Shown: positions 7,958 through 64,000, counted from the stretch's first letter. The stretch is 64,000 nucleotides of DNA from an uncultured bacterium (GCA_950073265.1 CATMPJ010000001.1:11522-75521); one strand, 5' to 3'. The notes: a model not told the origin generated them from the letters alone. Numbers and translations: made by a program.

Positions 7958-7958
7958 T

Positions 7959-9074: not shown

Positions 9075-9078
9075 CTTC

Positions 9079-9831
9079 TTATTCAGTTGCTTTCACAATT
9101 GCGGCAAAATCTGTTGCGTTAAGGCTTGCTCCACCGACCAAAAAACCACCCATACCACCATCTGCATGCAGCACTTTTGCGTTGTGCGGCTTCACCGAAC
9201 CTCCATATAACAGCTTTACTGAATTAGCAACTTTCCTATCAAACACTTTAGTAAGGACGCTATAGATAAACAATTGCATTTCTTTTACATCCTCGACCGT
9301 TGCTGTTTTCCCCGTGCCAATGGCCCAGATTGGTTCATACGCTATGACAATCTTTTTTATATCAGTTGTGCCAAAGACAGCGGTCAGAGCTTTGATTTGC
9401 TTAGCGACAGTTGTATAAAAATCTCCCTTAGCGTCACGTTCTTTTTCACCAACACAAACTACCGGTGTTAGTTTATTTTTCAATGCTTGCGTCACCTTCT
9501 GCACAACATCAGAATCAGTCTCGCCCCTAGCGCGTCGTTCCGAGTGACCAATAATGACATAGGAGATTTTGAGATCGCGCAATTGTGACGCCGCTATTTC
9601 GCCTGTAAATGCACCAAGCGGCTCGGTTGAAACATCTTGTGCAGCGAGCAGAATCTTGCTGCGTGATATTTTTTTTGACACGTCACTCAGGTACACAAAT
9701 GGTGGCGCGATTGCGATAGATGCATTTGTACCTCGACAGGCTTTGATCGTAGCTTGCGCCAATGTAACTGCAGCTTTCTGGCTGACTGGATTGAGCTTCC
9801 AATTTCCAATTATTAACGGCGCTTTTTTCAT
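9079..9831 (-). CDS. tpiA: Triosephosphate isomerase
   Basis: MKKAPLIIGNWKLNP... VIIGHSERR. I chose the ATG at 9831; the ORF-track extension to 9900 adds a non-conserved N-terminus. Confidence 0.9.
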   Translation of the reverse strand: MKKAPLIIGNWKLNPVSQKAAVTLAQATIKACRGTNASIAIAPPFVYLSDVSKKISRSKILLAAQDVSTEPLGAFTGEIAASQLRDLKISYVIIGHSERRARGETDSDVVQKVTQALKNKLTPVVCVGEKERDAKGDFYTTVAKQIKALTAVFGTTDIKKIVIAYEPIWAIGTGKTATVEDVKEMQLFIYSVLTKVFDRKVANSVKLLYGGSVKPHNAKVLHADGGMGGFLVGGASLNATDFAAIVKATE

Positions 9832-9853
9832 GCCATCATTGTACCATCCACGT

Positions 9854-11635: not shown

Positions 11636-12128
11636 ATGACTCTCTTAAAATTGCTAAGCCAGTATACGTGCGCGTCTCTTGCCCATCACGAATGTCGTAG
11701 GTAATAGCAAGTTCGTATCGGATTGCTTGAGAAACTGGAGTGGTAATTTGGGTAATGTAGAAACGTGACACGCTTTGAGTATCTGGGCTTAAACTGAGGG
11801 CAGTACCATCATCAATTTGCACCTGCATGATATCGTCGACAACTGAAAAGACCGTACTACCAGAAGTGGTTTCGATGGTTACGTAGCCAATATTACTCTC
11901 AAGTGAGGAATTGTTTATATCAATGCCGGTCCCCGATCTTGTCTCACGGACGATTTGACCAATTATTGCTCCGCCTGCTCGGTCAGCCTGAGAGCGGGCA
12001 ACGGTGTCACTATATAAGAAATATGTAGACAAGATAAAGTAAGCAATAACACTTAGCAATAGGACTGCTACAACTAAATAAACGAGTAACTCAACTAACA
12101 CAAAACCGGTTGAACCTTTAGTTTTCAT
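11628..12128 (-). CDS. Prepilin-type N-terminal cleavage/methylation domain protein (minor pilin / pseudopilin)
   Basis: MKTKGSTG|FVLVELLV class-III signal with G-1, F+1, E+5. An alternative start MYMK lies at 12134. Overlaps the upstream gene. Confidence 0.65.
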   Translation of the reverse strand: MKTKGSTGFVLVELLVYLVVAVLLLSVIAYFILSTYFLYSDTVARSQADRAGGAIIGQIVRETRSGTGIDINNSSLESNIGYVTIETTSGSTVFSVVDDIMQVQIDDGTALSLSPDTQSVSRFYITQITTPVSQAIRYELAITYDIRDGQETRTYTGLAILRESYD

Positions 12129-12600
12129 ATACATTGTGAATGAGAAACTCGCCATCTGTTAAGAATTTTGCATCTGCTGTTCGATAGACTGAGACAACGG
12201 CCTGCAATGAATCGGAGTCAACATCACCGTTATCATCTAAGACACCGTCCATATCACGACGAACTTCATCGAACACTACTTCGGTGTAGTAATCTTCGCT
12301 GGTTGGTTGTGTCGATGAAAGGGCATAACTATTAGATAAGCGCTCAAGATAATATGTGGTGCCGATTGTAGCCGCTCCGATAGAGCTTGACCACGATGTG
12401 TCCCGCATAATCTGCAATGCTTCTGCGCTCTCATCAATCCGTAAAAAAGCTTGCATTTGATTACTAGAAGAGGTGCCGAGTCGGATCACTGACACCAAAG
12501 CAGCAGACACTGCCAATGTCATAGTGATCACTAAGGCACTGACGATGATTATTTCAACGGTGCCAAATCCCCCCTGTTGATTGCTTTTATCGTAAAACAT
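12118..12600 (-). CDS. Prepilin-type minor pilin / pseudopilin
   Basis: Leader ...NQQGG|FGTVEIIIV with E+5, followed by a hydrophobic helix. Confidence 0.65.
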   Translation of the reverse strand: MFYDKSNQQGGFGTVEIIIVSALVITMTLAVSAALVSVIRLGTSSSNQMQAFLRIDESAEALQIMRDTSWSSSIGAATIGTTYYLERLSNSYALSSTQPTSEDYYTEVVFDEVRRDMDGVLDDNGDVDSDSLQAVVSVYRTADAKFLTDGEFLIHNVYEN

Positions 12601-12613
12601 ATGTATCTACTAA

Positions 12614-13078
12614 TTAAGGTAGCACATTAATTGCACCCCCTTCGCTAACAGTGATACTTTGTGAAACAGTATCATCAGCCACAAGTGAAACCGATATAGT
12701 TGCTGCTTCGTTCGCAAAACCAGTCAAACGCGCAAAGACAATTTCTTCGTCACCTGAGAGATTCGTACTTAGTTCTAAATCACTGTCTAATGTATATACC
12801 TGCTCATCATCTCTGGTGTCATACGATGTTCCGCTAAATAATTCATACGAGTCAGTGTTGAATTTTACCCCTTGTGGTAGGTTGTCCCTGCCCGCCAGGG
12901 CATCACTCTTCGCCAGTTCCAGTGTCGCAACTATAGATTGTGTTGCTTGTTCGACTTTTTTCACCGCGCGTAGCTCGATGTAGCTTGATACACCCCAAGC
13001 TGCGAGAATGAGTAGAATAAAAATAACCACCAGCATTTCGATTACACTAAATCCGTGTTGGTTATTTTTTTTACACAT
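12614..13078 (-). CDS. Type IVa pilin (PilA-like)
   Basis: MCKKNNQHG|FSVIEMLVVIFILLILAAWG, a canonical prepilin leader with N-methyl-Phe context. I chose the ATG at 13078; the ORF-track start at 13210 overlaps pilC. Confidence 0.7.
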   Translation of the reverse strand: MCKKNNQHGFSVIEMLVVIFILLILAAWGVSSYIELRAVKKVEQATQSIVATLELAKSDALAGRDNLPQGVKFNTDSYELFSGTSYDTRDDEQVYTLDSDLELSTNLSGDEEIVFARLTGFANEAATISVSLVADDTVSQSITVSEGGAINVLP

Positions 13079-13079
13079 A

Positions 13080-14312
13080 CTACCCAATACCGTCTGAAAT
13101 TGAATAAATCGGGGCAATGAGCGCCAGCGCGAAAAATCCGACTCCGGCACCGATGACCACCATAAGGAGGGGCTCGATGATTGTCGATAGGTCTTTGGTC
13201 TTGCGTTCAACTTCCGTTTCGTAGAAGTTGGCCAACTCGCCCAACATATTTGAAATCTGACCGGTTTCTTCGCCGACCAAGATCATTTCTCCCACCAACA
13301 CTGGATACAGCTTCTTTGCCTCAATAAACGGTTCGGAGAGTGGCGTACCTTTTTCAACTCGTCTGGCAGCATCGCGAATCACTCGTTTATAGTAAACATT
13401 CTGAAGAACCTCTTCAGTGATTTCAATAGATTGCAAGACATCGACACCAGACTCGAGAAGCGACGATAACGTCCGTGCAGTCTGAGCTGAATTTGCTTCC
13501 TTCGCAATTTGCCCAATAACCGGCAGGCGGACTACCGTCCAAGACACCGCACGTTTACCTGTTTTACTGCGCACGAAAGAAATGAGTGCGACCACAATTG
13601 CGGCAAAGCCACCCAATACCAATAACGGATGAGCCGCCATGATGTCGCTGGCGGCAATTAAAAACTGAGTGGTCTTCGGCAACTCCTTATCCATACCAGC
13701 AAACACCCCCGTAATTTTTGGCATGACGTAAATCATCATCAAGATAGCAATGACAAGCATAACCGTAATTACAATTGATGGGTAGATCATCGCGCCCTTT
13801 ATTTTTTTCTTGAGGTTACTTGCCCGCTCCATCTGAATCGCCAACGTTTGCAACGATCTTGCTAGTTGCCCACTTTCTTCGCCGGCTCGCACCATCGCCA
13901 CGTACAAATCATTAAATTCCTTGGGGTGCGCTTTTAATGCGTCATAGAATGAAACACCTTGCTTTATTTGTTCACTAATATTGCGTGTTACAACTTTTAG
14001 TCGAGGGTTGGTTGTTTGTCGTTCAATTACCGACAAGCCACGCGTTACCGTGAGACCAGCCGAAAGCATTGAGCCCAGGTTACGAGTAATCATAACTAAT
14101 TCATCATCTTTAACTCTACTTAAAAAGTAGTTGATGCGTTCCATACTCAGCCAATCTTTCAGACTGAATTTTGATGCTTCATGTATGTCTGTGACCGTGT
14201 GGTTTTGTTCTCGGGCAATCTTGTACACCGCAAATCTATCAGCTGCTTCAACGGTTTCTCGTACTGGTTTTCCAGAACTATTTTCTCCTGAATAAATAAA
14301 TGTCGCCATCAT
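13080..14312 (-). CDS. pilC: Type IV pilus assembly platform protein PilC (GspF family)
   Basis: 410 aa with two T2SS_F repeats and 3 TM segments. Confidence 0.85.
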   Translation of the reverse strand: MMATFIYSGENSSGKPVRETVEAADRFAVYKIAREQNHTVTDIHEASKFSLKDWLSMERINYFLSRVKDDELVMITRNLGSMLSAGLTVTRGLSVIERQTTNPRLKVVTRNISEQIKQGVSFYDALKAHPKEFNDLYVAMVRAGEESGQLARSLQTLAIQMERASNLKKKIKGAMIYPSIVITVMLVIAILMMIYVMPKITGVFAGMDKELPKTTQFLIAASDIMAAHPLLVLGGFAAIVVALISFVRSKTGKRAVSWTVVRLPVIGQIAKEANSAQTARTLSSLLESGVDVLQSIEITEEVLQNVYYKRVIRDAARRVEKGTPLSEPFIEAKKLYPVLVGEMILVGEETGQISNMLGELANFYETEVERKTKDLSTIIEPLLMVVIGAGVGFFALALIAPIYSISDGIG

Positions 14313-16063
14313 TACTCATTAATTACTCGTAATACTTCTTCAATTGAAGTAAGTCCCTGGGCTGCTTTGAAAATACCGTCTTCAATCATTCGAAGCATAC
14401 CTTCCTTTTCCGCTTGCGCCTGTACCTCGTCACCAGTCTTTTCAGCGATGACCATTTCTTTAAGCGCCGGTGACATTTCAATCACTTCATGAATACCCAT
14501 TCGCCCATGGTAGCCGTCCTCTGTCTTACCTTTCTCTTTTGGTCTAAAGAAGTCAACATCATTCCAAGTGGCATCCTTTTTAATAACACCTTCATCTTTC
14601 AGACTCTCAAGAATCTTATCCAGATCAACCTTTTCTTGTAGTTCATCACGCTCGGCCTTAGATAATTTATACGGAATCTTATCGTCTGCCAGTTTTCGCA
14701 CTAGTCGTTGTCCAACCGCCACCCGCAGAGTCGATACCAACAAGAACGGTTCCGCACCCATATCTATAAGTCGTGCAATTGTGCCGGTGGCTGAGTTGGT
14801 GTGGAGTGTGGCGAGCACTAAGTGACCAGTCAGGGCAGCATTTATCGCTAGGCTCGCGGTCTCTTGATCACGGATCTCACCCACCATAATAATGTCCGGA
14901 TCTTGACGCATAAGAGAGCGAAGGCCGGCAGCAAAGGTAAATCCGATTTCTGGCTTTACCTGCGACTGGTTGATGCGTGGCATCTGATATTCAATCGGAT
15001 CTTCAATCGTAGAAATATTTACTTCCGGGGTGTTTAAGATATCCAGAATTGTATACAGAGTAGTAGACTTACCAGAACCGGTTGGTCCAGTCACCAATAT
15101 AATTCCGGTAGTAGCGCGAGTGGCACGATGGATCCGATCGAGTGTGCTGCCGTGAAAACCAATCCCCTCAAGCGAAAAACCACTCCGGTTTTCTCGCAAC
15201 AAACGCATAACGATCTTCTCGCCATAAAAAATTGGCAAAATCGATACGCGAAAAGCCACTTTCTGTCCGTCCATTTCCATCTTGAATCGACCATCTTGCG
15301 GAAGACGCTTTTGGTCGAGCTTAAGATTTGATAACACTTTAACCCGTGCAGCGATACTCCCAGCCGCAATCTGCGGCAATCGCATAGCATCATGCAGTAC
15401 ACCGTCTACGCGATAGCGTACAATCATTTCTTCTTCCATCGGCTCAATATGGATATCGGAAGCACCTTGAATGATGGCGTGCCGGAGTAATGTGTCAACA
15501 ATCCGTACCACCGGCAAGTCCTCAGCTGCCTTCTTGAGCTGGCTTTCCGTTAGTTCTTCGCCGTTTTCCTCTTCTAAAACTTTGAGTTTAGAAGCGTCTT
15601 GCATGATGAGATCACCAAATTCATCTTTCAGATTTTTTTGGTAAAGCCGCAGAGCTGAGCGCATTGACTCTGTGTCGGTGAGTCGAGCTTGAATTTTTAA
15701 GCCTACCTTCTTTTTAATGAAATCGATGGCCGGCAAGTCAGCAGTATCAAGCATAGCGACTTCAAGTGAGTCTTCATTTTTCTTGAAGGCAATAATATTG
15801 TGTTTACGCGCAACTGGCTCAGGAATAATGGTGAGCGTATCGAAATCTATTTTTTGGTCTTTTAGTGAGACAAACGGGATACCTAACACATACGACTCCA
15901 CCCGACGCATATCGTCTTCCGTCATATGCCCGTGCGAAATTAAAGCTTCTGCTAGAGAGCGATTTTCTTCTTTGGCAATTTTTTCGGCCGCAATTAAATC
16001 AGCCTTACTAACAAGCCCGGCATCGACGAGAAATCGTTTGAGTTGTTCGTCTTTAATACGCAT
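14312..16063 (-). CDS. pilB: Type IV pilus assembly ATPase PilB (GspE family)
   Basis: N-terminal GSPII_E_N domain, Walker A GPTGSGKSTT, Asp/His boxes. 1-nt overlap with pilC. Confidence 0.9.
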   Translation of the reverse strand: MRIKDEQLKRFLVDAGLVSKADLIAAEKIAKEENRSLAEALISHGHMTEDDMRRVESYVLGIPFVSLKDQKIDFDTLTIIPEPVARKHNIIAFKKNEDSLEVAMLDTADLPAIDFIKKKVGLKIQARLTDTESMRSALRLYQKNLKDEFGDLIMQDASKLKVLEEENGEELTESQLKKAAEDLPVVRIVDTLLRHAIIQGASDIHIEPMEEEMIVRYRVDGVLHDAMRLPQIAAGSIAARVKVLSNLKLDQKRLPQDGRFKMEMDGQKVAFRVSILPIFYGEKIVMRLLRENRSGFSLEGIGFHGSTLDRIHRATRATTGIILVTGPTGSGKSTTLYTILDILNTPEVNISTIEDPIEYQMPRINQSQVKPEIGFTFAAGLRSLMRQDPDIIMVGEIRDQETASLAINAALTGHLVLATLHTNSATGTIARLIDMGAEPFLLVSTLRVAVGQRLVRKLADDKIPYKLSKAERDELQEKVDLDKILESLKDEGVIKKDATWNDVDFFRPKEKGKTEDGYHGRMGIHEVIEMSPALKEMVIAEKTGDEVQAQAEKEGMLRMIEDGIFKAAQGLTSIEEVLRVINE

Positions 16064-51861: not shown

Positions 51862-53580
51862 ATGAGTGTCAAAAAAGACAAGACACTGGCTAAAGTCAGA
51901 ACCTTTGCACAGGACTTTACAGACCATCGACCATCCGGTGACAGCGCTGCTGTTTCTAGTGCCACACCAACACCGGAAGCTGAAATCAAGGCATCAGCGC
52001 ACAAGCCCGCAGAAAAAGAAAGACTCTCTCCGATAGAATCATCGACGCTGACGAAAGAAGAGTCGAAGGAGGCTCCAAAACCAATCCCAAAAATTGTCGT
52101 CAGCTCAACCGAAAAAAAGTCTGCACCAATAATTCCTTCGTTTCATGAGCTGGAGAAAGTAGCCGTGCCGAAACCGAAAAAACAACCGGCCACTATCACT
52201 GTTAAAAAAAGACCGGCCCGGCCAATCTCTGGCGAGGCGACCATTATCACCTCGACTAAAAAATCGAGAAATGCTACTAGGCGTCCTTCTGTCTTCTTAG
52301 CTTTGCAAGAGTGGGTCACTGGTCTGTTTACTAAAAAACCAGTCAGTCATACATACCAAGTCCCGGATGCAAACCATCGCAAGGGAGTGGTAGAAAAGGC
52401 GACCACTAAAACCGGTGCATTTTTCACTGCAGACAACGAAACACTACGTGAAGAAATACTTCGAAGACGGCGGGCTGAAGAGTTAGCTGAAGATCAGCCT
52501 GCGAAATATACAGGTGCTGAAGATTTAGACATTACGTGGACACCGCGAACAGAAGCGGGTTACGAGTTGCTCACCGGAGAAAAAACACAACCAGCTCCAC
52601 CAGTTCAACTCGCTGAGCCGAAAGTGGAGCCGCAGGCTGAAACCGTGGCACCACCTATACCTGTTCCTCCGGAACCAGATCTTGCTGCAGAGCCAGAACC
52701 ACCTCATGAAACACCAGCTGCTGCAGAGTCCCGTTGGGCAACGTACGCTCAAGAGTCAAATGAAGCCAAGCCAGAATCTTCTGTAACACCAGCTGCTGCA
52801 GCACCAGCACCTGAACAAGTCCCGCCACAAACCACTGCACCGACTCCGTCACCAGAACCCAATCCATATACACTGCGAGCAGAACCTTTTGCTGCTTTGC
52901 GAAATGTATTTAGTGGTTCACCAGAATCAATCAATACCAATGGTATTGCTCTAGGGTTAGTCGCTGTACTGGCTAGTATTTTCATTGTTGTGGTTGTAGT
53001 ACAAATTATTTTCTCTGCGCTCACTCCAGACACTGATACATTACTTGTCGACCAACCCAGGCCACTACTAACTACGTATCCTGTCATTGATGTAACACTA
53101 CAAGCAACTACCAGCTCAGCTTTAATCAGCGCTTTAACCGAACAAAGAACAATCATCACTAATAGTGAGCAAGAGATCAGAATCATGACACCAACCGGTG
53201 AAGAGATGCCAACGAAAGAGTTGATTGCCCTGATGGACCTGGACCTTGATCCAGAGCTGACTCAGGCCATAACGACAATTCGGTTTGTTAACCTAGATGG
53301 TGTTCAGTATGCGTTAGTTTTTGCTGTCAACGACTCAATCACGGCGCTCGGCGGCATGCTGCAGTGGGAGACAATGATGGTTAATAATCTGAGTGAATAT
53401 ATATATATAACCAACCCACCAACCGAATCATTCGCTTTCACTGATGAAACGGTAGCGGGTAAAGACGTTCGCGTACTTAGTGATGGTGTTGATGAGGTGC
53501 TCACGTATGGCTTCGTCACAGACGAAATAATCCTCATTACAAAAACGAGCGACTCGTTTACCCGCTTGGCAACTCAGTAA
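51862..53580 (+). CDS. Hypothetical Pro/Ala/Thr-rich single-pass membrane protein
   Basis: 572 aa. Low-complexity N-terminal half, TM at IALGLVAVLASIFIVVVVVQIIF, structured C-terminal domain. Confidence 0.5.
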   Translation: MSVKKDKTLAKVRTFAQDFTDHRPSGDSAAVSSATPTPEAEIKASAHKPAEKERLSPIESSTLTKEESKEAPKPIPKIVVSSTEKKSAPIIPSFHELEKVAVPKPKKQPATITVKKRPARPISGEATIITSTKKSRNATRRPSVFLALQEWVTGLFTKKPVSHTYQVPDANHRKGVVEKATTKTGAFFTADNETLREEILRRRRAEELAEDQPAKYTGAEDLDITWTPRTEAGYELLTGEKTQPAPPVQLAEPKVEPQAETVAPPIPVPPEPDLAAEPEPPHETPAAAESRWATYAQESNEAKPESSVTPAAAAPAPEQVPPQTTAPTPSPEPNPYTLRAEPFAALRNVFSGSPESINTNGIALGLVAVLASIFIVVVVVQIIFSALTPDTDTLLVDQPRPLLTTYPVIDVTLQATTSSALISALTEQRTIITNSEQEIRIMTPTGEEMPTKELIALMDLDLDPELTQAITTIRFVNLDGVQYALVFAVNDSITALGGMLQWETMMVNNLSEYIYITNPPTESFAFTDETVAGKDVRVLSDGVDEVLTYGFVTDEIILITKTSDSFTRLATQ

Positions 53581-56179: not shown

Positions 56180-57361
56180 TTAAAATGGGTTTCTGCCTCC
56201 ACGCACTTCAAAGTGAAGGTGCGTCCCCGTAGACTTTCCTGAACTACCCATACCACCAATGACTTCACCTTGTCCGACGTAACTACCAACACCAACATTG
56301 AGTGAGGAGAGGTGAGCGTACAATGTCTGCGTACCGTTACTGTGCTTTATCACGATGTAACTACCGTACCCGCCATTCCAACCAGATCCTTTCGCCACAA
56401 TAACTTCACCAGCCGCAGCCGCCCGAATGGCTGAGCCCATTCCACCGGCTAAGTCTACAGCGTTATAGCCGTGGATACCCTGCGTACGGATTGCACCTGG
56501 AGCAGGGTGGGTGAAGCCTGAGCCACTACCACCAGAGGCTGCGCTACTACCTGCGGCTTTTGCTTTAGCTGGCGCCGCTGTATGCATCGCACCGCCAGGC
56601 ACAATGATCGTATCACCAACCGCTAGTTCTGAGCCGGCCGATAGCTGGTTGTAGGAAAGGATTTCGTCTTCGTCACCTTCATACTTCTTAGCAATACTTT
56701 GTAGTGTATCTCCACTTTTTACTACGTGACGTACGCCAGCAATTGGCAAAATAACCAGTGAGTCACCTGGTTGAATGTCACTGGCTCGACTCACGTCGTT
56801 GGCCCACATAATAGTGTTGGAGGTGACACCAAACATTTCAGCAATCTCAGAGAGTGAGTCACCTTCGCGCACTGTATAGACCCGAATTTCACCAGTATTA
56901 TTGGCACCTGCTTGCGCAATTTCGTCGGCACCAACCGGTCCGGTAGAAACAAGTGCATTATCATCAACCTGGATCTCGGCGCCACCGCGTGCCCCTTGTG
57001 GATTTGCGTTTAGACCAGCGGTAAGGAGAGAAATATCTGTTGGACTTTCGTCATTAGCAGCTTCGTCAACTACTTCAACAATAATCTCTTCGGTAAATAA
57101 ACCACTAAAAAAACCGGCTCGGACTGTAAATGGAAGACTAACTGCAATGATTAGGAGCAAGACTTCTACAGTAACTCGTAGTCGGGATGGGATGTGTTCT
57201 ATGTGTGACGCTACACTATCAGCGTAGGTCGGTTGTTGATTCTGTTTTATGAGAAATTGGTTATGGTCTCGCCGCCGGTCAATCGTTACCCCTGTGCTCG
57301 AAAAGAAAACGCACCCTCTTGGGTACAAGCAGTATTCTACTAAAGGTTGTCTAGCTGACAA
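56180..57361 (-). CDS. LysM-domain M23 family metallopeptidase (membrane-anchored)
   Basis: Two LysM repeats (GDSLSEIAEMFGV..., GDTLQSIAKKYEG...) and an M23 catalytic core (HLHFEV). The exact start is uncertain; an in-frame GTG lies near 57200. Confidence 0.85.
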   Translation of the reverse strand: MSARQPLVEYCLYPRGCVFFSSTGVTIDRRRDHNQFLIKQNQQPTYADSVASHIEHIPSRLRVTVEVLLLIIAVSLPFTVRAGFFSGLFTEEIIVEVVDEAANDESPTDISLLTAGLNANPQGARGGAEIQVDDNALVSTGPVGADEIAQAGANNTGEIRVYTVREGDSLSEIAEMFGVTSNTIMWANDVSRASDIQPGDSLVILPIAGVRHVVKSGDTLQSIAKKYEGDEDEILSYNQLSAGSELAVGDTIIVPGGAMHTAAPAKAKAAGSSAASGGSGSGFTHPAPGAIRTQGIHGYNAVDLAGGMGSAIRAAAAGEVIVAKGSGWNGGYGSYIVIKHSNGTQTLYAHLSSLNVGVGSYVGQGEVIGGMGSSGKSTGTHLHFEVRGGRNPF

Positions 57362-57531: not shown

Positions 57532-59490
57532 ATGAATACGTTCCCTACATATACAAATGGCTTAAATCCGCAGCAACGTGAAGCAGTACTTACGGTAGAA
57601 GGACCGGTTATGGTTCTGGCGGGAGCTGGTTCTGGCAAAACGCGGGTAATTACCCATCGAATTGTACATTTAATTGTGCAAGGGGTAGCTCCACACAACA
57701 TCCTGGCTGTAACCTTCACAAACAAAGCCGCTAAAGAGATGCGTGAGCGCGTGCAGACATTACTCGCTGAACATGCCTCAGCTAGTAGAGCAGCCATGGA
57801 TAGTCTTCCGGTCGTAACAACCTTTCACTCGCTTGGTGTTCGCTTGCTGCGTGAGTTTCATCACGCAATGAATCTGCGCCGTCAGTTTGTAATATATGAT
57901 CGCAGCGATAGCCAGAAAGCAGTGAAGCAGGCGATTGAAAAAGCTAATTACAATCCCAAAGAATTCGAACCACGCAAAATACTAAGCCTGATTTCTCGTG
58001 CGAAGGGTGATGCCATAACGCAATTGGAATACAGTGATCGAGCAAATTCATATTTGGAGCAGGTTGTGGCTGAGGTCTGGGAAAAGTATGATGCAGAATT
58101 AGCACAGCAGCACGCTCTAGACTTTGATGACTTACTGGCCAAGACGCTACGCTTACTACAGAACAACCAAGCAATTAGAGAGCAACTGCAACAGCGTTAT
58201 AAATACATTCACGTAGATGAGTACCAGGATACCAACCGGGTGCAGTTTTCAATTGTAGAGTTGTTGACAGGCGAGGCAAAAAATATTTGTGTCGTGGGCG
58301 ACATTGATCAAAATATTTACTCATGGCGTGGAGCTGATATAAAAAATGTATTGCAGTTTGAACGCCACTTTCCAGACACCACCACCATTCTTCTAGAAGA
58401 AAATTATCGATCAACCAAAACCATTATTGCGGTCTCAAACGAAGTGATTGCCAAAAATCAGAACCGGGTAGAGAAGACCGTATTTACCAACAACCAAGAT
58501 GGTGAAAAAATAAAACTCTATGCGGCAATGACGGGCGGGGATGAGGCAAGTTATGTAGCTCGCACTGCAGAGTCGCTTATTGCAGATGGTGCCGATCCAA
58601 GTAGTATTGCCGTCTTGTATCGAACGAATTTTCAATCTCGCGCGCTTGAAGAAGCATTTCTGACCCAGAATGTCCCATACCAACTCTTGGGTACAAAGTT
58701 TTTTGAACGTAAAGAGGTAAAAGACGTTTTGTCATATCTGCGCCTGGCGCTTAACCCCGATAGTACTGCTGATTTAACCCGAATCATCAACACACCTGCT
58801 CGCGGCATTGGAAAGGTCACTATGCTGAAGGTAGTGGAAGGGAAGCGCGGAGAACTCAACGTGGGAGCACTAGCCAAAGTAAAGGTATTTGATGAAATCA
58901 TGATGGATATTGCTAAGACCGCTAAAGAGAAGCATCTTTCAGATACCATAAAATTTATTATGAAGCGCAGCGGCCTTGAGAACACCCTTAAAGAAGAACG
59001 AACGGAAGAAGCGATGGAACGACTTGAGAACCTGCGCGAGCTGGTAACATTGGCCAGTCGATACAACGAATTACCGCCCGAAGAAGCGGTTGAGCAATTG
59101 CTCGAAAGTGCTGCACTGCAAAGCGACCAAGACGAGATTAAAAACAAAGAGGAATTAAACGCCGTTCGTTTGATGACTGTTCACGCCGCAAAAGGCCTGG
59201 AGTTTCCTTACGTATTTATCACAGGACTTGAAGAAGGTCTCTTTCCCCACGAACGACTTGATGACGCGCGGATAGACCACGAAGAAGAACGGCGCTTGTT
59301 CTACGTTGCCCTAACTCGAGCCGAGAAAAAGGTCTGGCTAACGTATGCACACATGCGCACTATTTTCGGTAGTCAGAGGATTAACGTGCCTTCAAGTTTC
59401 CTTAACGATATAAGTACTGAACACGTAGAAAACGACACTCCCGGCGGAGGATACAGTTCCGGCTACGAGACAACTGTGTATTTGGACTAA
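57532..59490 (+). CDS. pcrA: ATP-dependent DNA helicase, UvrD/PcrA family
   Basis: Motif I AGAGSGKTRVITHRI and the remaining SF1 helicase motifs. Confidence 0.9.
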   Translation: MNTFPTYTNGLNPQQREAVLTVEGPVMVLAGAGSGKTRVITHRIVHLIVQGVAPHNILAVTFTNKAAKEMRERVQTLLAEHASASRAAMDSLPVVTTFHSLGVRLLREFHHAMNLRRQFVIYDRSDSQKAVKQAIEKANYNPKEFEPRKILSLISRAKGDAITQLEYSDRANSYLEQVVAEVWEKYDAELAQQHALDFDDLLAKTLRLLQNNQAIREQLQQRYKYIHVDEYQDTNRVQFSIVELLTGEAKNICVVGDIDQNIYSWRGADIKNVLQFERHFPDTTTILLEENYRSTKTIIAVSNEVIAKNQNRVEKTVFTNNQDGEKIKLYAAMTGGDEASYVARTAESLIADGADPSSIAVLYRTNFQSRALEEAFLTQNVPYQLLGTKFFERKEVKDVLSYLRLALNPDSTADLTRIINTPARGIGKVTMLKVVEGKRGELNVGALAKVKVFDEIMMDIAKTAKEKHLSDTIKFIMKRSGLENTLKEERTEEAMERLENLRELVTLASRYNELPPEEAVEQLLESAALQSDQDEIKNKEELNAVRLMTVHAAKGLEFPYVFITGLEEGLFPHERLDDARIDHEEERRLFYVALTRAEKKVWLTYAHMRTIFGSQRINVPSSFLNDISTEHVENDTPGGGYSSGYETTVYLD

Positions 59491-59554
59491 TTTGGGGCGA
59501 GCCGCTGGCCAGCTGCTCGTCTTTCCTTTTCTGTGTAATTTATGTACGCTCTAC

Positions 59555-60352
59555 ATGATGAGATTCGAACACAAGAAAAGTCTGGGCCAAAACTTTCTCA
59601 ATAGTGACTACGTGCCAAAAAAAATGTGTGACGCCGCACAGGTTTCGGAAAACGACAGTGTGCTTGAAATAGGTCCAGGTACTGGCGCCCTCACTCGCGA
59701 ATTGCTCGCTCGTGGCGCCAGCGTCATCGCACTTGAGGCAGACCCTCGGGCAGTTGAAGTGCTTACTAATACTTTCGCTACCGAAATCAAAACGGGACAG
59801 CTCCTACTAAAACACACTGATGCACGTGAGTATGACCCAGTAGCTTTAAGACTTATAAATCAAGAGTTTAAAGTGGTCGCTAACATTCCGTATTATCTTT
59901 CGGGATTACTCTTACGGTCGTGCCTCGACACTAACACGCAACCAAATACACTGGTTTTCCTAATGCAGAAAGAGCTGGTGGAGCGAATTGCACGCGAACC
60001 TAAAGAATCGTTACTCTCATTATCGGTCAAAGCTTTTGGCATTCCCACATATATATGTACGATAAAACGTGGACACTTTACTCCGGCTCCAAAAGTTGAT
60101 TCCGCCATTTTGCTAGTATCAGATATTTCACATAGGAACTTTTCTCAGCTTTCAAACGAACACTTTTTTACTCTCTTACATGCCGGTTTTGGTCAAAAGC
60201 GCAAGCAATTGCAACATAATTTGCGACAAATCTATGAAAAAGACGCTGTCTTCGATGCCTTGAGAACTGTCGGATTGCCTGAATCTGTTCGGGCTGAGGA
60301 TGTTTCACTACAAAACTGGCTTACGCTGGCTCAAATACTAGAAACCCAATAA
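59555..60352 (+). CDS. rsmA: 16S rRNA (adenine1518/1519-N6)-dimethyltransferase RsmA/KsgA
   Basis: KKSLGQNFL, VLEIGPGTGALT. I chose the ATG at 59555. Confidence 0.9.
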   Translation: MMRFEHKKSLGQNFLNSDYVPKKMCDAAQVSENDSVLEIGPGTGALTRELLARGASVIALEADPRAVEVLTNTFATEIKTGQLLLKHTDAREYDPVALRLINQEFKVVANIPYYLSGLLLRSCLDTNTQPNTLVFLMQKELVERIAREPKESLLSLSVKAFGIPTYICTIKRGHFTPAPKVDSAILLVSDISHRNFSQLSNEHFFTLLHAGFGQKRKQLQHNLRQIYEKDAVFDALRTVGLPESVRAEDVSLQNWLTLAQILETQ

Positions 60353-60403
60353 ACACTGTGTGTACGAACAAAAAGCCAAATCCGGCACTGCTATAATGTT
60401 TGT

Positions 60404-61294
60404 ATGAAAAAAGAATCACAACGCAAGATTCTCGGTGCTTTTGTTGTTGGACTGGCTCTGGTTGCTGGTGCGTACACGGTCGCAAACTTTACTGGACCTT
60501 CTTACACGCAACCAGCATCGATAATACAGCCCCAAGCTGCTCCCCGTAGCGCTATTGATGTATCTGACAACGACAACAATGGTATTGAAGACTGGCGAGA
60601 GGAGTTCGTCACCGCCGAGCCAGTGATAATCAATGAGACTGTTTCTGGTGAATACACTACACCCGACACCCTCACTGGACAAACTGGGGTTAGCTTTTTT
60701 GAAAACATCTTACAGTCTCGTATTTATGCACAAAATCCAGACGCATCGGAACAAATTATTAATGACACAATCGCCTCTCTTGAAGCTGAAACTTCAGGCA
60801 TCCTCTACGATCTACGCGATATAAGTGTGATTTCTAACTGGAATGAATCCGACATCAGAAGCTATGCCAATGTCATGGGAAATAGCTTAACAGCGAATAG
60901 TCCAGAAGGGCTTGAAAACGAGCTCTCAATTCTAAACGGTGTATTAGCACGTGGCGAAGTTGAGCGAATTTCAGAATTAGAAGAAATTGCTGCCTATTAC
61001 AAAACTCTCACGGACAGAGCTCTCGCCACACCGGTACCTGGTGTGTTGGTTAAGGAACACCTAGATCTAATCAATACCTATAACGCATTGTACCTGGACA
61101 TTGATGCAATGACACAAGCTCTAGAAGATCCAGTCGTGTCTCTTGTGCGTATGCGCAAGTATCGTGACGATACACTAGGTCTCCAGCTAGCGCTTGAAAA
61201 CATGTACATGTCGCTTCTGCCATACGAGTCATTATTTACTAGTACTGATGCGGCACTGGCGTTTACATTATTCATACCGAGACAAAGAATTTAA
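60404..61294 (+). CDS. Hypothetical secreted/membrane-anchored protein
   Basis: 296 aa, N-terminal signal/TM ILGAFVVGLALVAGAYTVA. No recognisable family. Confidence 0.5.
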   Translation: MKKESQRKILGAFVVGLALVAGAYTVANFTGPSYTQPASIIQPQAAPRSAIDVSDNDNNGIEDWREEFVTAEPVIINETVSGEYTTPDTLTGQTGVSFFENILQSRIYAQNPDASEQIINDTIASLEAETSGILYDLRDISVISNWNESDIRSYANVMGNSLTANSPEGLENELSILNGVLARGEVERISELEEIAAYYKTLTDRALATPVPGVLVKEHLDLINTYNALYLDIDAMTQALEDPVVSLVRMRKYRDDTLGLQLALENMYMSLLPYESLFTSTDAALAFTLFIPRQRI

Positions 61295-61305
61295 TAAAAA
61301 CAAAT

Positions 61306-62691
61306 ATGGATTTCTTCTTCAATACCCTAAAAAAAATTCTCACCCTGACCGTGTCAATTGTGTTTGCTCTGGTTGTGCTTTATGTGCCACAACAGTACGG
61401 ATCACACAAAACCGTTCCGACCGTTGAAGCGTTCCCGGTAGTCGAAGTAGGTCCTAATGTTGTAACAAATACCATTAGAACTGTTAAAGAAACGGTACTC
61501 GATCGCATCGGCTGGATGCTAGCCAAAGCAGTGGTTTCAAATATCATGGCTAGTACCATTGATTGGGTAAACTCTGGGTTTCGAGGCAGTCCTGCTTTCG
61601 TACAGGATTTGGATCGCTTTTTGCTTAACGTCGCAGATGAAGCTGCAGGGAGAGTATTAGAAGAGTTTGGTGGAGAATTTTCTTTTATCTGTTCACCCTT
61701 TAGGCTGGATATCCAGGTTGCATTAGCGTTGCAGTACCAGCAAGCAAGGGAGGGTCTCCCATACCAAGGCTGTCTTTTGAGTGAAGCTTTTGAGAATTTT
61801 GAAGATTTTGTTGCCGGTGACTTCTTGCAAGGGGGGTGGCAAGATTGGATGCAAATCAGCGCCAATCCAAATATGTATTCACAGTATGGTGCATACCTCG
61901 AAGCACAAACAACCTTCGAAGCAAGGATTCGTAATGCTGAAGGTAGAGAAAGCCAGCTACTAGACTTTGGCAAAGGATTCCTATCCAGCAAACAGTGTGA
62001 GACTGTTACTGGACCGGATGGCGAAGGAGTTGAAAATTGTCGCATTGTTACTCCTGGTCAGACAATTGCCGATAGACTTAATACCAGCCTGGGACTGGGA
62101 GAACAGCAGTTAATCGCTGCAGATGAGATTGACGAACTTATTGGAGCCCTGGTCGGCCAAATCGCAGTAAAAGCACTGCAGGGGACAGCCGGTCTCTTAG
62201 GGCTTTCGGCTAACGTAAGTGGTTCTAGTTACCCAGGTTTTGATGCTGCATCATACACGCAAGCCTTGCGTAACGAAGGTTCTAACTCACTTCGAAATAC
62301 TCTTAACGATGAAGGTGGTACATTACAAAACACTCTTGACACACAAATAGAGTACCGTGACATGGCGAGCGAACTTAACCGTGAAGGTTTGACACTTCTC
62401 GGTAGTGGTCGGCTTTCTGACAGTGAACGAAACATTGTCTCTGAAGTAGTTTTACAGACCGACCGTGCCGTTAAGCAAGCTAATGAAAATATTCAAGCAT
62501 TGGAAACAAAAATTACCGAGTACGAAGCGCTGGATAGAGAGTATGACAATCCTGCTACTGACAACCAAAGAAAAGACGAGATAAACAGCGAACTGCAACA
62601 AATCCTCCTTTCAGTCGTGCGCGGTACGTACTACACTGAAACCGATCTCATTGGAGACAAACAGGACTGGGAAGATGCACTGACTCTTTAA
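61306..62691 (+). CDS. Hypothetical membrane-anchored protein with coiled-coil C-terminus
   Basis: 461 aa, N-terminal TM ILTLTVSIVFALVVLYV. 11-nt gap from the upstream gene, 15-nt gap to the downstream gene. Confidence 0.5.
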   Translation: MDFFFNTLKKILTLTVSIVFALVVLYVPQQYGSHKTVPTVEAFPVVEVGPNVVTNTIRTVKETVLDRIGWMLAKAVVSNIMASTIDWVNSGFRGSPAFVQDLDRFLLNVADEAAGRVLEEFGGEFSFICSPFRLDIQVALALQYQQAREGLPYQGCLLSEAFENFEDFVAGDFLQGGWQDWMQISANPNMYSQYGAYLEAQTTFEARIRNAEGRESQLLDFGKGFLSSKQCETVTGPDGEGVENCRIVTPGQTIADRLNTSLGLGEQQLIAADEIDELIGALVGQIAVKALQGTAGLLGLSANVSGSSYPGFDAASYTQALRNEGSNSLRNTLNDEGGTLQNTLDTQIEYRDMASELNREGLTLLGSGRLSDSERNIVSEVVLQTDRAVKQANENIQALETKITEYEALDREYDNPATDNQRKDEINSELQQILLSVVRGTYYTETDLIGDKQDWEDALTL

Positions 62692-62706
62692 ACCACATTC
62701 AATTTG

Positions 62707-64000
62707 ATGATACCAAAAAGCTACAAATTCATACCGCTGCTCGTGCTGGGCTTTTTGGTATTTACACCACAGATCACGCATGCTGATTTTCTTCAAAAAA
62801 CCCTTTGGGAAGCCGTCACTGGTATCTTTGGTACCATTCTTGCCCTGTGTGCGTGGCTCTTCGATATAGCAATCAATAGTTACGTTATCGGCTTTGCCGA
62901 TGAATACACTACGTCTGGCATTGGCCTAGCGATTGACCAGGGCTGGTCACTAGTGCGCGACATCATGAACTTACTGTTCATCTTTGGCTTACTCTACATC
63001 GGATTCAAAATCATTCTTGGTAGTGATGATTCGTCTACCAGAAAGTTGTTAGTGAACCTAATAATGGCAGCCCTCTTGGTGAACTTTAGTCTTTTTATCA
63101 CTAAGTTTGTGGTTGATACTTCAAACTCGCTGGCAGCCCAAATTGCGATGAATGGTTTCGTGGGGGATGAAAAAGAAGTACAAATTTCTGATTCCGGCGC
63201 AACCGCCACTAGGTATCAGGTTGATATGTCAGAGGACCTTATGGCACGACTAGGTCTTTCGAGTATCTTTAACTATGAAAACTCTGACTCAGGCATTAAC
63301 AATGACTGGGGTTATATTTTTGGTACCGCAATTCTACTTATCGTCGCATCATTTGTGTTTGCTGCTGGTGCAGTACTATTGATAATTCGATTTGTAGCGC
63401 TCAACTTTTACATACTTTTTTCACCGCTTATGTTTATCGGTTGGGCATTTCCTCCGTTAGGGAGACATACCACTGAGTACTGGCGTGGTTTTTTAGGAAA
63501 AGCCTTTTTTGCGCCTATCTATCTTCTGTTTATTTATTTTTCCGTCAGTATCATCACCGCCCTCAATACAAACCGGGGTCTTAACGACTTCGCCAGCAAC
63601 TCATTAGGCAATGCACTACAAAACCCGAGCGGTGGCGCTAACGCTATTGATCGTTTAAATAGCGCCAGCGCTTTCCCATACTTCATTCTCTCCATCGCAT
63701 CCCTCATTATGTCACTGGTTGTTGCGCAAAAACTAGGTGCTACTGGTGCTTCTCAAGCTATTTCAATCGGACAAAATATGCGCCGCGGCGCCCAAAACCG
63801 CCTCAAACGCGGCGCAGTTGCAACGGGCAGATTTGCTGCTACTCAAACAGGCGGGCGCGCTGCGCGATACGCAACTGAAAGAACAGGGTCTGGGCTAAAA
63901 GCTGCTACTCGGAATTTGCAAGAATTAAAAGGTGACAGTATTGCAGCTAGAGGTGTGCGCAAGTTGGCTAGAACCAATGCAGTAGAACGATACGGGTACG
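62707..64000 (+). CDS. Polytopic membrane protein with TrbL/VirB6-like topology (partial, runs off window end)
   Basis: ATG at 62707, open frame to the window end, so not in the ORF track. Signal peptide, then at least 6 TM helices, then a basic Gly/Ala-rich hydrophilic tail. Confidence 0.5.
   Translation, partial: MIPKSYKFIPLLVLGFLVFTPQITHADFLQKTLWEAVTGIFGTILALCAWLFDIAINSYVIGFADEYTTSGIGLAIDQGWSLVRDIMNLLFIFGLLYIGFKIILGSDDSSTRKLLVNLIMAALLVNFSLFITKFVVDTSNSLAAQIAMNGFVGDEKEVQISDSGATATRYQVDMSEDLMARLGLSSIFNYENSDSGINNDWGYIFGTAILLIVASFVFAAGAVLLIIRFVALNFYILFSPLMFIGWAFPPLGRHTTEYWRGFLGKAFFAPIYLLFIYFSVSIITALNTNRGLNDFASNSLGNALQNPSGGANAIDRLNSASAFPYFILSIASLIMSLVVAQKLGATGASQAISIGQNMRRGAQNRLKRGAVATGRFAATQTGGRAARYATERTGSGLKAATRNLQELKGDSIAARGVRKLARTNAVERYGY

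What the first reader, a model, noticed from the sequence alone, without database searches (positions are those of the whole stretch)
60404..64000. Terminal cluster of three co-directional membrane/secreted proteins ending in a TrbL/VirB6-like polytopic protein
Three tightly spaced plus-strand genes follow rsmA at gaps of 11 and 15 nt, and each starts with a signal or TM segment. The last is absent from the ORF track because it has no stop inside the window. It has a signal peptide, then at least six TM helices, then a basic hydrophilic tail, the topology of VirB6/TrbL channel subunits of type IV secretion and conjugation systems. None of the three matches a family I can name. A T4SS-like or otherwise novel envelope machine may begin here and continue past the window.
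Basis: partly seen in the sequence, partly recalled or inferred. Interest (0 to 1): 0.5.

Follow-up and report, generated by a model that had tools for sequence, protein, structure and literature searches.

The report
Start of a Patescibacteria type IV secretion operon

Summary
Three co-directional genes follow rsmA: g1 60404-61294 (296 aa), g2 61306-62691 (461 aa) and g3 from 62707, cut by the window end. The gaps are 11 and 15 nt. Each protein starts with a hydrophobic segment.

I recovered the source contig, a 729,568-bp metagenomic scaffold. On it g3 is a 773-aa extended VirB6/TrbL-like protein. It is followed by a PrgI/VirB3 protein, a split VirB4 (a TrsD-like N-terminal piece plus a 597-aa ATPase that passes the NCBIfam CD1110 VirB4 cut-off) and a VirB2-like pilin. 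I saw no relaxase, coupling protein or integrase.

In 80 other species-level genomes, mostly labelled Paceibacteria/Parcubacteria, the order is strictly conserved: LysM-M23(-), uvrD, rsmA, g1, g2, VirB6, PrgI, TrsD, VirB4. A conserved extended -10 box sits 6-8 nt before the g1 start codon, which marks g1 as the first gene of the unit.

This is the Patescibacteria T4SS described in 2023-2025 and essential for epibiotic growth in a cultivated Saccharibacterium.

g1 and g2 belong to large families with no Pfam or NCBIfam model. g1 is an anchored helical bundle with a DxDxNG loop. g2 is cysteine-containing, and a minority of its relatives carry a TrbJ-type N-terminal motif. That link is a lead, not a demonstrated homology.

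The parts
60389..60397 (+). Extended -10 promoter-like box TGCTATAAT. It ends 6 nt before the g1 ATG, which implies a leaderless or near-leaderless transcript starting at g1.
   Evidence: Sequence. A TGnTAnAnT box followed by the in-frame g1 start is present in 65 of 76 related loci. The spacing is mostly 6-8 nt, and the background frequency of the motif is 0.28 per kb per strand. The same box-plus-ATG arrangement occurs at other gene starts in this window. The transcription start itself is inferred, not measured.
60404..61294 (+). g1 is a 296-aa bitopic membrane protein and the first gene of the T4SS unit. It has an N-terminal anchor (helix 2-29). A linker carries an invariant D55-x-D57-x-N59-G60-x-x-D63-x-x-E66 loop plus W64 and R65. 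An extracytoplasmic helical bundle spans about residues 90-290.
61306..62691 (+). g2 is a 461-aa bitopic membrane protein. It has an N-terminal anchor and a conserved extracytoplasmic core (about residues 55-330). The core holds a W87-x-N-x-G-F-x-G-x-P motif, four invariant cysteines (129, 156, 231, 245), A272-D-E and G296-L-L-G-L. The C-terminal part is a variable coiled coil. It sits directly upstream of the VirB6-like gene and is a candidate VirB5/TrbJ-like subunit. That assignment is a weak lead.
   Evidence: Alignment A1. 5352 cluster representatives match at E<=1e-3 and 2242 at E<=1e-30, and there is no Pfam model. Sub-threshold hits of some family members go to Pfam DUF4141 and to three NCBIfam TrbJ models, all at the mature N-terminus. 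Profile-profile comparison with TrbJ is negative. The structure model is poor, pLDDT 58.
62707..64000 (+). g3 is the N-terminal 431 of 773 residues of an extended VirB6/TrbL-like polytopic protein. It has a signal-peptide-like start, about seven hydrophobic helices and the beginning of a roughly 430-residue hydrophilic C-terminal domain.
   Evidence: Translation and hydrophobic segments. The full length on the contig, with a precomputed PF19590 TrbL_3 hit, is. The fragment alone gives PF04610 E=0.061 and pLS20_p028 E=0.004. 85 of 120 relatives carry TrbL_3 and/or TrbL. 10 of 30 relatives hit PF04610, best 3.2e-7. It is followed by PrgI, TrsD and VirB4.
56180..57361 (-). LysM + peptidase M23 protein, divergently oriented upstream of uvrD. 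It may be the wall-remodelling (VirB1-like) partner of the system. Whether it belongs to the system is uncertain.
   Evidence: Pfam LysM and Peptidase_M23 on the called gene. It is conserved at this position in 63 of 80 related loci. PMC12102498 reports VirB1-type hits with M23/LysM domains and says VirB1 homologues are associated with virB4 in Paceibacteria. No functional link was tested here, and uvrD and rsmA are equally syntenic.

Best explanation
The three genes are the promoter-proximal end of the chromosomal, Patescibacteria-type type IV secretion system (T4SS) operon of an uncultured Paceibacteria/Parcubacteria-like bacterium.

Shown here. g3 is an extended VirB6/TrbL-like polytopic protein. 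The same strand continues with a 163-aa protein, PrgI/VirB3, a TrsD-like VirB4 N-terminal domain, a VirB4 ATPase, a polytopic 308-aa protein, two secreted proteins and a VirB2-like pilin. g1 and g2 always accompany this set in the same order. A conserved extended -10 box sits just before g1.

Inferred from the R388 T4SS structure (PMC9259494) and the monoderm T4SS literature. VirB6-like g3 forms the membrane platform. It is anchored to the VirB3/VirB4 motor on the cytoplasmic side through its long C-terminal domain. The pilins are assembled on it. g1 and g2 are held in the membrane by conserved N-terminal helices. They project a Ca-loop-bearing helical bundle (g1) and a probably disulfide-bonded, cysteine-containing domain with a coiled coil (g2) into the wall zone. 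They are structural parts of the extracytoplasmic stalk or tip. They would fill the roles that VirB8 and VirB5 play elsewhere.

The machine has no relaxase or coupling protein nearby. It most likely serves contact-dependent exchange with a host cell (export of proteins, or uptake of host molecules) rather than conjugation. This is by analogy with Southlakia epibionticum, where the homologous cluster is essential for epibiotic growth (PMC10633639).
For: Contig extension and gene content. VirB4 scores 367 bits against a cut-off of 325, PrgI scores 44.9 against 27, and the 211-aa protein has TrsD and VirB4-N-terminal hits.

VirB6 assignment at family level: with weaker support.

Synteny: the order is strictly collinear in all 80 species-level loci, and absences occur only at contig ends. 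g1 is present in 79, g3 in 76, PrgI in 67 and VirB4 in 64.

Operon start: the extended -10 box lies before g1 in 65 of 76 loci, against a background of 0.28 per kb. uvrD has its own box at 57509. So g1 and g2 are transcribed with the T4SS genes, not with rsmA.

Extracytoplasmic location of g1 and g2: basic residues precede the anchor, and g2 has four invariant cysteines.

Chromosomal, non-mobile context: housekeeping neighbours and flat GC of 0.42-0.48.

Literature agrees on every point of architecture. TrsD, PrgI, VirB6 and VirB2-like pilins lie near virB4. KsgA/rsmA is common near virB4. Relaxases are absent. These are in PMC12102498. Essentiality in S. epibionticum is in PMC10633639, and both are reviewed in PMC12857230.
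Against: The window itself holds none of the diagnostic T4SS genes. Its g3 fragment is below the Pfam and NCBIfam cut-offs. My hhalign comparisons of the g3 family with single VirB6/TrbL sequences were weak (probability 21% and 0.5%).

The roles proposed for g1 and g2 rest on position, topology and conservation only. uvrD and rsmA are just as syntenic, so synteny alone does not prove membership. g1 has a generic helical-bundle fold. g2 could not be modelled.

The function (what is transported, and in which direction) is unknown even in the cultivated model organism. Only ORFs of about 480 aa or more in the upstream 57 kb of the window, plus the 10 kb downstream of g2, were scanned for a coupling protein or relaxase. 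The rest of the 730-kb scaffold was not examined.
Confidence: 0.85

Rival explanations
1. The cluster is part of a mobile conjugative element (an ICE or integrated plasmid) and moves DNA by classical conjugation.
For: The VirB4 best matches conjugation-ATPase models (CD1110 family, Mycoplasma ICE VirB4, TraC). PrgI, TrsD and VirB6 are conjugation-type components.
Against: No relaxase, coupling protein or integrase was found among the genes scanned. The cluster lies between housekeeping genes in the same order in 80 species-level genomes. GC content shows no island. The literature finds relaxases in only about 100 Patescibacteria genomes, rarely near virB4.
Confidence: 0.03
2. The machine is a DNA-uptake T4SS, like the relaxase-free and coupling-protein-free ComB system of Helicobacter. 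It would feed nucleotides or DNA to a bacterium that cannot make them.
For: No relaxase or T4CP lies nearby. The window also encodes ComEC, RecJ, a ComM-like protein and a type IV pilus ATPase. A UvrD/PcrA helicase is conserved right next to the cluster.
Against: In S. epibionticum a comEC deletion abolishes competence but not viability, while the T4SS is essential. Its essential role there therefore does not run through ComEC-dependent DNA uptake (PMC12857230). Competence in that organism depends on type IV pili. uvrD has its own promoter-like box and is a housekeeping gene.
Confidence: 0.08
3. g1 and g2 are unrelated envelope proteins that merely sit between rsmA and the T4SS genes in a very stable genome. 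Only g3 onward belongs to the T4SS.
For: uvrD, rsmA and the LysM-M23 gene are equally syntenic, so conserved order is not specific. Neither protein matches any T4SS family above threshold.
Against: The gaps are 11 and 15 nt, with no promoter-like box before g2 or g3 in most loci: 11 of 78 and 11 of 68, against 49 of 79 before g1. The conserved promoter box lies before g1. Both proteins are membrane-anchored and extracytoplasmic. The top family-level hits for g2 in two independent libraries are T4SS proteins that sit next to VirB6 genes: DUF4141/TraI and TrbJ.
Confidence: 0.08
4. g3 is a polytopic transporter or permease unrelated to VirB6, and the resemblance is only topological.
For: The window fragment scores below the cut-offs. 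Comparison with single VirB6/TrbL sequences is weak. No structure was predicted for g3.
Against: 85 of 120 relatives carry TrbL_3 or TrbL domains, and 10 of 30 hit PF04610 down to 3.2e-7. No transporter family was hit by any member. The gene sits immediately before PrgI, TrsD and VirB4, the same core order as prgH-prgI-prgJ of pCF10 (from my own knowledge of pCF10).
Confidence: 0.02

Closest known systems
Patescibacteria (CPR) T4SS: the S. epibionticum ML1 cluster SEML1_0006-0019 (Wang et al. 2023, PMC10633639) and the Patescibacteria VirB4 clade surveyed by Quinonero-Coronel et al. 2025 (PMC12102498)
   Same: It is chromosomal and of monoderm type. It has a VirB6-like protein with a long C-terminal domain, PrgI/VirB3, a separate TrsD-like protein, VirB4 and a VirB2-like pilin. 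No relaxase or coupling protein lies nearby. rsmA/ksgA is next to the cluster.
   Different: The gene order and accessory genes differ from the Saccharibacterium. There the cluster has two VirB6-like genes flanking an NTF2-like (VirB8-fold) protein, and large peptidase and lysozyme genes follow virB4. Here there is one VirB6-like gene preceded by g1 and g2. g1 is not NTF2-like, and an M23/LysM gene lies upstream on the other strand. In the text I read of the survey paper, g1 and g2 are not among the named components. I could not view its figures.
[quoted passage not shown]
   Same: The core order is VirB6-like, then VirB3-like, then VirB4. The best profile matches of VirB4, TrsD and some g3 relatives are to these families. 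There are no outer-membrane core components.
   Different: No relaxase, T4CP or adhesin is present. Pilin genes are present. VirB4 is split into two ORFs. The cluster is fixed in the chromosome rather than carried on a mobile element.
VirB5/TrbJ-VirB6/TrbL stalk of Gram-negative T4SSs (R388 structure, PMC9259494; trbJ-trbK-trbL, traC-eex-traD, and Bacteroides traI(DUF4141)-traJ)
   Same: A secreted or anchored helical protein is encoded directly upstream of the VirB6 gene (for the references). A minority of g2 relatives carry the same mature N-terminal motif as IncP and Pandoraea TrbJ: DIVLDPTNLIQTT in a g2 relative against DIVLDPTNLVQNT in TrbJ. Pilins are present, so a tip or stalk subunit is expected.
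   Different: g2 is about twice as long, is anchored, and has a cysteine-containing core absent from TrbJ. Profile-profile comparison shows no homology beyond the signal peptide and motif. The window's own g2 has only a degenerate form of the motif.
Extended VirB6 proteins (the class of VirB6 with large hydrophilic C-terminal domains described in PMC12857230; Rickettsiales VirB6 paralogues, PMC7648143)
   Same: A polytopic N-terminal part is followed by a large hydrophilic C-terminal domain of about 430 residues.
   Different: No sequence relationship of the C-terminal domain to those proteins was tested or seen. The organism is a monoderm.

Membership tests
Type IV secretion system (Patescibacteria / MPF_FATA-like type) | A VirB4-family ATPase encoded in the cluster | tested here: met
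   L001 15304-17097 encodes a 597-aa protein. It scores 367.1 bits on NF045971 (VirB4-like, CD1110 family) against a cut-off of 325, and PF19044 gives E=1.6e-26. The gene lies 3.3 kb beyond the window end, on the same contig and strand.
Type IV secretion system (Patescibacteria / MPF_FATA-like type) | A VirB3/PrgI-like small membrane protein next to VirB4 | tested here: met
   PF12666 PrgI gives E=1.7e-11 and 44.9 bits against a cut-off of 27.
Type IV secretion system (Patescibacteria / MPF_FATA-like type) | A separate TrsD-like protein (VirB4 N-terminal domain) upstream of VirB4 | tested here: inconclusive
   The 211-aa protein gives NF045975 VirB4_plasma residues 101-231 at E=1.2e-8 and NF041427 TrsD at E=1.8e-4. 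Both are far below the full-length cut-offs. A precomputed PF26593 TraC-like hit is on record. Position and size fit.
Type IV secretion system (Patescibacteria / MPF_FATA-like type) | VirB2-like pilin gene(s) in the cluster | tested here: inconclusive
   A 361-aa ORF at L001 20740 has a signal peptide, two hydrophobic helices and a weak precomputed PF18895 hit. The locus ends inside it, so a pilin array could not be examined.
Type IV secretion system (Patescibacteria / MPF_FATA-like type) | No relaxase or coupling protein in the cluster; fixed chromosomal location | tested here: met
   None was found among the genes called or scanned, from 57 kb upstream of the finding to 10 kb downstream of g2. 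Only ORFs of about 480 aa or more were scanned in the upstream part. The order is identical in 80 species-level genomes. GC is flat.
VirB6/TrbL (PF04610, PF19590) for g3 | Significant match to the family profile | tested here: inconclusive
   The window fragment gives PF04610 at 13.5 bits against a cut-off of 25.9. The full-length protein gave no hit in my scan but has a precomputed PF19590 hit. PF19590 never appeared in my own scans, so it may be absent from the library copy used. At family level, 85 of 120 relatives carry PF19590 and/or PF04610, and 10 of 30 hit PF04610, best 3.2e-7. The feature is met for the family but not for this sequence alone.
VirB6/TrbL (PF04610, PF19590) for g3 | Polytopic protein with five or more hydrophobic helices, encoded beside VirB3/VirB4 | tested here: met
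   There are about seven hydrophobic segments after a signal-peptide-like start. PrgI lies about 0.5 kb downstream.
VirB6/TrbL (PF04610, PF19590) for g3 | VirB6 fold (long helices forming a pentameric stalk base) | not tested
VirB5/TrbJ (and Bacteroides TraI/DUF4141) for g2 | Homology to the family profile over the helical domain | tested here: not met
   hhalign of A1 against a 9-sequence TrbJ alignment gives probability 1.1%. A1 against R46 TraC gives probability 0.2%. No PDB sequence match was found. Only sub-threshold hits confined to the first 70 or so residues were seen: DUF4141 at 19 bits against 30, and TrbJ models at 13-18 bits against 225-286.
VirB5/TrbJ (and Bacteroides TraI/DUF4141) for g2 | Mature N-terminal motif (I/V)(P/V)V(I/L/F)D-x-x-N-x-x-Q-N directly after the signal sequence | tested here: inconclusive
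   The motif is present in 18 of 238 family members. It is nearly identical to that of IncP and Pandoraea TrbJ. It is degenerate in the window's own g2 (FPVVEVGPNVVTNT). A motif-selected subset gives hhalign probability 30% and E=5e-4 over 49 columns.
VirB5/TrbJ (and Bacteroides TraI/DUF4141) for g2 | Gene immediately upstream of the VirB6 gene | tested here: met
   g2 ends 15 nt before g3. The same arrangement is seen in 76 of 80 loci.
VirB8 / PrgL / TcpC (NTF2-like bitopic T4SS proteins) for g1 | N-terminal anchor followed by an NTF2-like alpha+beta domain | tested here: not met

The most novel reading that the evidence does not exclude
g2 would be the missing VirB5/TrbJ-type stalk or pilus-tip subunit of the pilus-forming monoderm T4SS of Patescibacteria. 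Its family exceeds 2,000 sequence clusters and has no profile in the Pfam and NCBIfam copies searched. It would have diverged beyond profile detection except for the mature N-terminal motif kept by a few members. g1 would be a new Ca-binding, membrane-anchored helical-bundle subunit that replaces VirB8 in the wall-spanning part. Together with VirB6 they would form the base on which the pilus grows toward the host cell.
Probability: 0.2. Interest if true: 0.6.

Novelty: new member of a known kind. Interest (0 to 1): 0.35.

Why it matters
The Patescibacteria T4SS is the only T4SS known to be essential for the bacterium that carries it. It is thought to be the conduit between these ultrasmall epibionts and their hosts, yet its extracytoplasmic parts are unidentified. 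VirB8 homologues are almost never detected, and VirB5 was not reported in the Patescibacteria-clade clusters.

This locus adds nothing to the existence of the system. It does show that in the Paceibacteria-type cluster two unannotated membrane-anchored proteins are invariably the first genes of the operon, directly ahead of VirB6. They are therefore concrete candidates for the missing stalk, tip or wall-spanning subunits. They are also obvious targets for new profile models, multimer modelling and cryo-ET.

Tried and rejected
- Pfam and NCBIfam on g1, g2 and the g3 fragment gave nothing above threshold.
- PDB sequence-profile searches with the g1, g2 and g3 family alignments gave only coiled-coil or low-complexity noise.
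- AlphaFold of g2 with 27 sequences gave pLDDT 58, confident only in the C-terminal coiled coil. Foldseek on that model gave no match at E<=0.001.
- tblastn of a g2 relative against 72,556 plasmids gave no relevant hit.
- hhalign of the g2 family against R46 TraC and against a TrbJ alignment I assembled from plasmids was negative. A motif-selected subset matched only over the signal peptide and motif. I therefore do not file g2 as TrbJ/VirB5.
- hhalign of the g3 family against single VirB6 (R46 TraD) and TrbL (pTiC58) sequences was weak. Single-sequence templates have little power, so the Pfam results carry the assignment.
- I tested the suspected shared Gly/Ala/Arg-rich motif between the g3 tail and the N-terminus of the 308-aa downstream protein. 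It was not significant.
- I looked for gene fusions of g2 with other cluster proteins among 39 long family members and found none.
- The generic promoter and terminator scan of the cluster gave counts at chance level. The informative signal came only from the cross-species comparison.
- Two accession guesses for reference plasmids (R388, RP4) were not in the collection.

Full report
**1. The observation.** The region reads as the first-stage reader described it. After uvrD/pcrA (57532-59490) and rsmA/ksgA (ending at 60352) come three plus-strand genes. g1 is 60404-61294 (296 aa). g2 is 61306-62691 (461 aa). g3 starts at ATG 62707 and remains open for 431 codons to the end of the window. The gaps are 11 and 15 nt. 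A hydropathy scan gives one N-terminal hydrophobic segment in each of g1 and g2. In g3 it gives a signal-peptide-like segment, then about seven hydrophobic helices, then a strongly basic tail. All three have hundreds of database relatives with very low E-values, so they are real genes.

**2. Extending the contig.** The exact g2 protein is on record on ENA ERZ23495313 scaffold_2, a contig of 729,568 bp. Locus L001 covers it, and window position equals L001 position plus 51,305. There g3 is 773 aa and carries a precomputed TrbL_3 (PF19590) hit. On the same strand, at very short spacings, follow these genes:
- a 163-aa protein;
- a PrgI/VirB3 protein (PF12666, 44.9 bits against a cut-off of 27);
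- a 211-aa protein that matches the N-terminal region of VirB4 proteins and TrsD;
- a 597-aa VirB4-like ATPase (NF045971, 367 bits against a cut-off of 325; PF19044 E=1.6e-26);
- a 308-aa polytopic protein;
- two secreted proteins of 320 and 379 aa;
- a pilin-like protein with a signal peptide and two hydrophobic helices.

**3. Is g3 a VirB6/TrbL protein?** On its own, the window fragment scores below threshold: PF04610 gives 13.5 bits against 25.9, and pLS20_p028 gives E=0.004. My scan of the full-length protein returned nothing. PF19590 never appeared in any of my scans, so it may be missing from the library copy used. At family level the picture is clear. Of the 120 best relatives, 85 carry precomputed PF19590 and/or PF04610. 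Ten of 30 relatives scanned afresh hit PF04610, down to E=3.2e-7, and none hit a transporter family. One relative hit the Mycoplasma ICE VirB6-like model. Profile comparisons with single VirB6 and TrbL sequences were weak, and I did not predict a structure for g3. With the topology and the position directly before PrgI, TrsD and VirB4, I accept g3 as an extended VirB6-like protein. The membership table records that the profile criterion is met by the family and not by this sequence alone.

**4. Conservation and context.** An alignment of g2 relatives (A1) picked up at least 298 species-level genomes in the GTDB collection. The 80 best were fetched with 10-kb flanks. They are labelled Paceibacteria/Parcubacteria (Kaiser-, Nomura-, Wolfe-, Taylor- and Zambryskiibacteria) or generically Patescibacteria/Saccharibacteria. 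I searched their six-frame ORFs with the proteins of L001. The order in every locus is LysM-M23(-), uvrD, rsmA, g1, g2, VirB6-like, [163-aa], PrgI, TrsD, VirB4, [308-aa], 320-aa, 379-aa. Genes are missing only where contigs end. g1 is present in 79 of 80 loci, g3 in 76, PrgI in 67 and VirB4 in 64. The rest of the window is ordinary chromosome: ComEC, RecJ, a type IV pilus ATPase, NusA, RNase Y, CCA-adding enzyme, a Clp ATPase, PNPase, a ComM-like protein and NUDIX. GC content is flat. No relaxase, coupling protein or integrase was seen. The cluster is therefore a long-resident chromosomal system and not a mobile element.

**5. Where the unit starts.** Because uvrD and rsmA are as syntenic as g1 and g2, order alone cannot assign g1 and g2 to the T4SS. 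The intergenic sequence can. The window has TGCTATAAT at 60389-60397, 6 nt before the g1 ATG. A TGnTAnAnT box followed by the in-frame g1 start is present in 65 of 76 related loci. The spacing is mostly 6-8 nt, and the background is 0.28 boxes per kb per strand. Boxes at that distance are much rarer before g2 (11 of 78) and g3 (11 of 68). The same box-plus-ATG arrangement precedes several other first genes in the window, and uvrD has its own at 57509. I infer that g1 is the first gene of a leaderless or near-leaderless transcript that runs into the T4SS genes. This is inferred from sequence, not measured.

**6. What g1 and g2 are.**

*g2.* It has a conserved anchor and a conserved core with W-x-N-x-G-F-x-G-x-P, four invariant cysteines, ADE and GLLGL motifs. 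Its C-terminal coiled coil is variable. A profile search of 1.84 billion cluster representatives finds 5352 relatives at E<=1e-3 and 2242 at E<=1e-30. No Pfam or NCBIfam model covers the family. Its structure could not be predicted with the shallow alignment used.

**7. The TrbJ/VirB5 lead for g2.** I scanned family members one by one. The most frequent hits in both libraries were T4SS proteins. Pfam DUF4141 was hit by 3 of 27 members, best E=8.8e-4. Three different NCBIfam TrbJ models were also hit, best E=0.0013. All hits lie in residues 18-67, just after the anchor, and align to the start of the mature TrbJ or DUF4141 profile. DUF4141 proteins are encoded next to traJ, the VirB6 homologue of Bacteroides conjugative transposons (PMC10434189). 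I assembled nine TrbJ sequences from plasmid records. IncP and Pandoraea TrbJ begin IPVIDGGNLVQNV and DIVLDPTNLVQNTLTAV. Some g2 relatives read almost the same, for example DIVLDPTNLIQTTATAI.

The lead does not hold up as homology. Only 18 of 238 family members have the motif, and the window's own g2 has a degenerate form. hhalign between the g2 and TrbJ alignments gives probability 1.1%. A motif-selected subset gives 30% over the signal peptide and motif only. R46 TraC/VirB5 gives nothing. g2 occupies the VirB5/TrbJ position in front of VirB6, and a few members keep a TrbJ-like N-terminus. Homology is not shown. I treat this as the most novel reading still open, with probability about 0.2.

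**8. How it most likely works.** The R388 structure shows a VirB6 pentamer in the membrane carrying a VirB5 pentamer, with the pilus proposed to grow between them. The VirB3/VirB4 motor sits below (PMC9259494). By analogy, g3 is the membrane platform. Its long C-terminal domain faces the split VirB4 motor, and the pilins are assembled on it. g1 and g2 are anchored beside it and extend into the wall zone as stalk or tip parts. With no relaxase or coupling protein at hand, conjugation is unlikely. In S. epibionticum the homologous cluster and its pilin array are essential for growth on the host, whereas a comEC deletion is viable (PMC10633639; PMC12857230). That argues against an essential role through ComEC-dependent DNA uptake. 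It favours contact-dependent exchange with the host. The substrate and its direction are unknown.

**9. Comparison with what is known, and novelty.** Every architectural feature found here is described for Patescibacteria in PMC12102498. These are a VirB4 clade related to MPF_FATA, abundant TrsD, PrgI, VirB6 and VirB2-like pilins near virB4, rare relaxases, and KsgA near virB4. The locus is a further member of a known kind. What goes beyond the text I read of those papers is modest:
- g1 and g2 are universal, operon-first, membrane-anchored components of the Paceibacteria-type cluster;
- the operon has a conserved extended -10 box implying a leaderless start;
- g1 does not have the VirB8 fold;
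- g2 carries the weak TrbJ-type N-terminal motif in some relatives.

I score interest at 0.35.

Noticed in passing
window 24854, 26969, 38582, 57509, 60389 (+); 56041, 48343, 33986, 9846 (-): TGnTAnAnT extended -10 boxes sit 6-9 nt (14 nt for uvrD) before the start codon of several first-in-line genes. This suggests that leaderless or near-leaderless transcripts are common in this organism.
   Followed up: partly
L001 14666-15301 and 15304-17097 (beyond the window end): VirB4 is split into two ORFs separated by 2 nt. One is a 211-aa TrsD-like N-terminal domain. The other is a 597-aa ATPase that aligns to residues 172-732 of the CD1110 VirB4 model. The split is conserved in the related loci (65 and 64 of 80).
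   Followed up: partly
window 60554-60604 (g1 residues 51-67): An invariant D-x-D-x-N-G-x-x-D-x-x-E loop with W-R follows the membrane anchor of g1. It resembles the DxDxDG class of calcium-binding loops. This is a motif resemblance from memory and was not tested.
   Followed up: no
window 61306-62691 (g2): The g2 family has more than 2,200 sequence clusters at E<=1e-30. It has four invariant cysteines and several invariant motifs, and no Pfam or NCBIfam model. It is a large uncharacterised family tied to one gene position.
   Followed up: partly
window 57532-59490 (uvrD/pcrA) and 56180-57361 (-) (LysM-M23): A UvrD/PcrA helicase and a divergent LysM-M23 peptidase are as strictly syntenic with the T4SS cluster as its own genes (70 and 63 of 80 loci). 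The peptidase could be the VirB1-like wall hydrolase. PcrA-type helicases assist conjugative DNA processing in some Gram-positive elements (from memory), but here this may be plain conserved gene order.
   Followed up: no
window 59492-60352 (rsmA): The start of rsmA is ambiguous. The ORF list gives TTG 59492 (286 aa) and the public gene call starts at 59624 (242 aa). The ATG at 59547/59550 (MMRFEHKKSLGQNFL) keeps the conserved K-x-LGQNFL N-terminal motif and looks like the true start.
   Followed up: no
window 2949-16063: A competence and type IV pilus neighbourhood: ComEC (2949-4502, -), RecJ (5791-7473, -), a T2SSE/PilB-type ATPase (14312-16063, -) and adjacent unassigned ORFs, including a 593-aa protein (9854-11635, -) with no Pfam match.
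   Followed up: partly
window 51862-53580 (+): A 572-aa ORF between PNPase and a DksA/TraR-type zinc-finger gene has no Pfam match, either in the precomputed record or in my scan.
   Followed up: no
L001 17130-18056 (beyond the window end): The 308-aa protein after VirB4 has a Gly/Ala/Arg/Lys-rich N-terminal half and a polytopic C-terminal half, and matches no family. A suspected similarity to the basic tail of g3 was not significant.
   Followed up: yes
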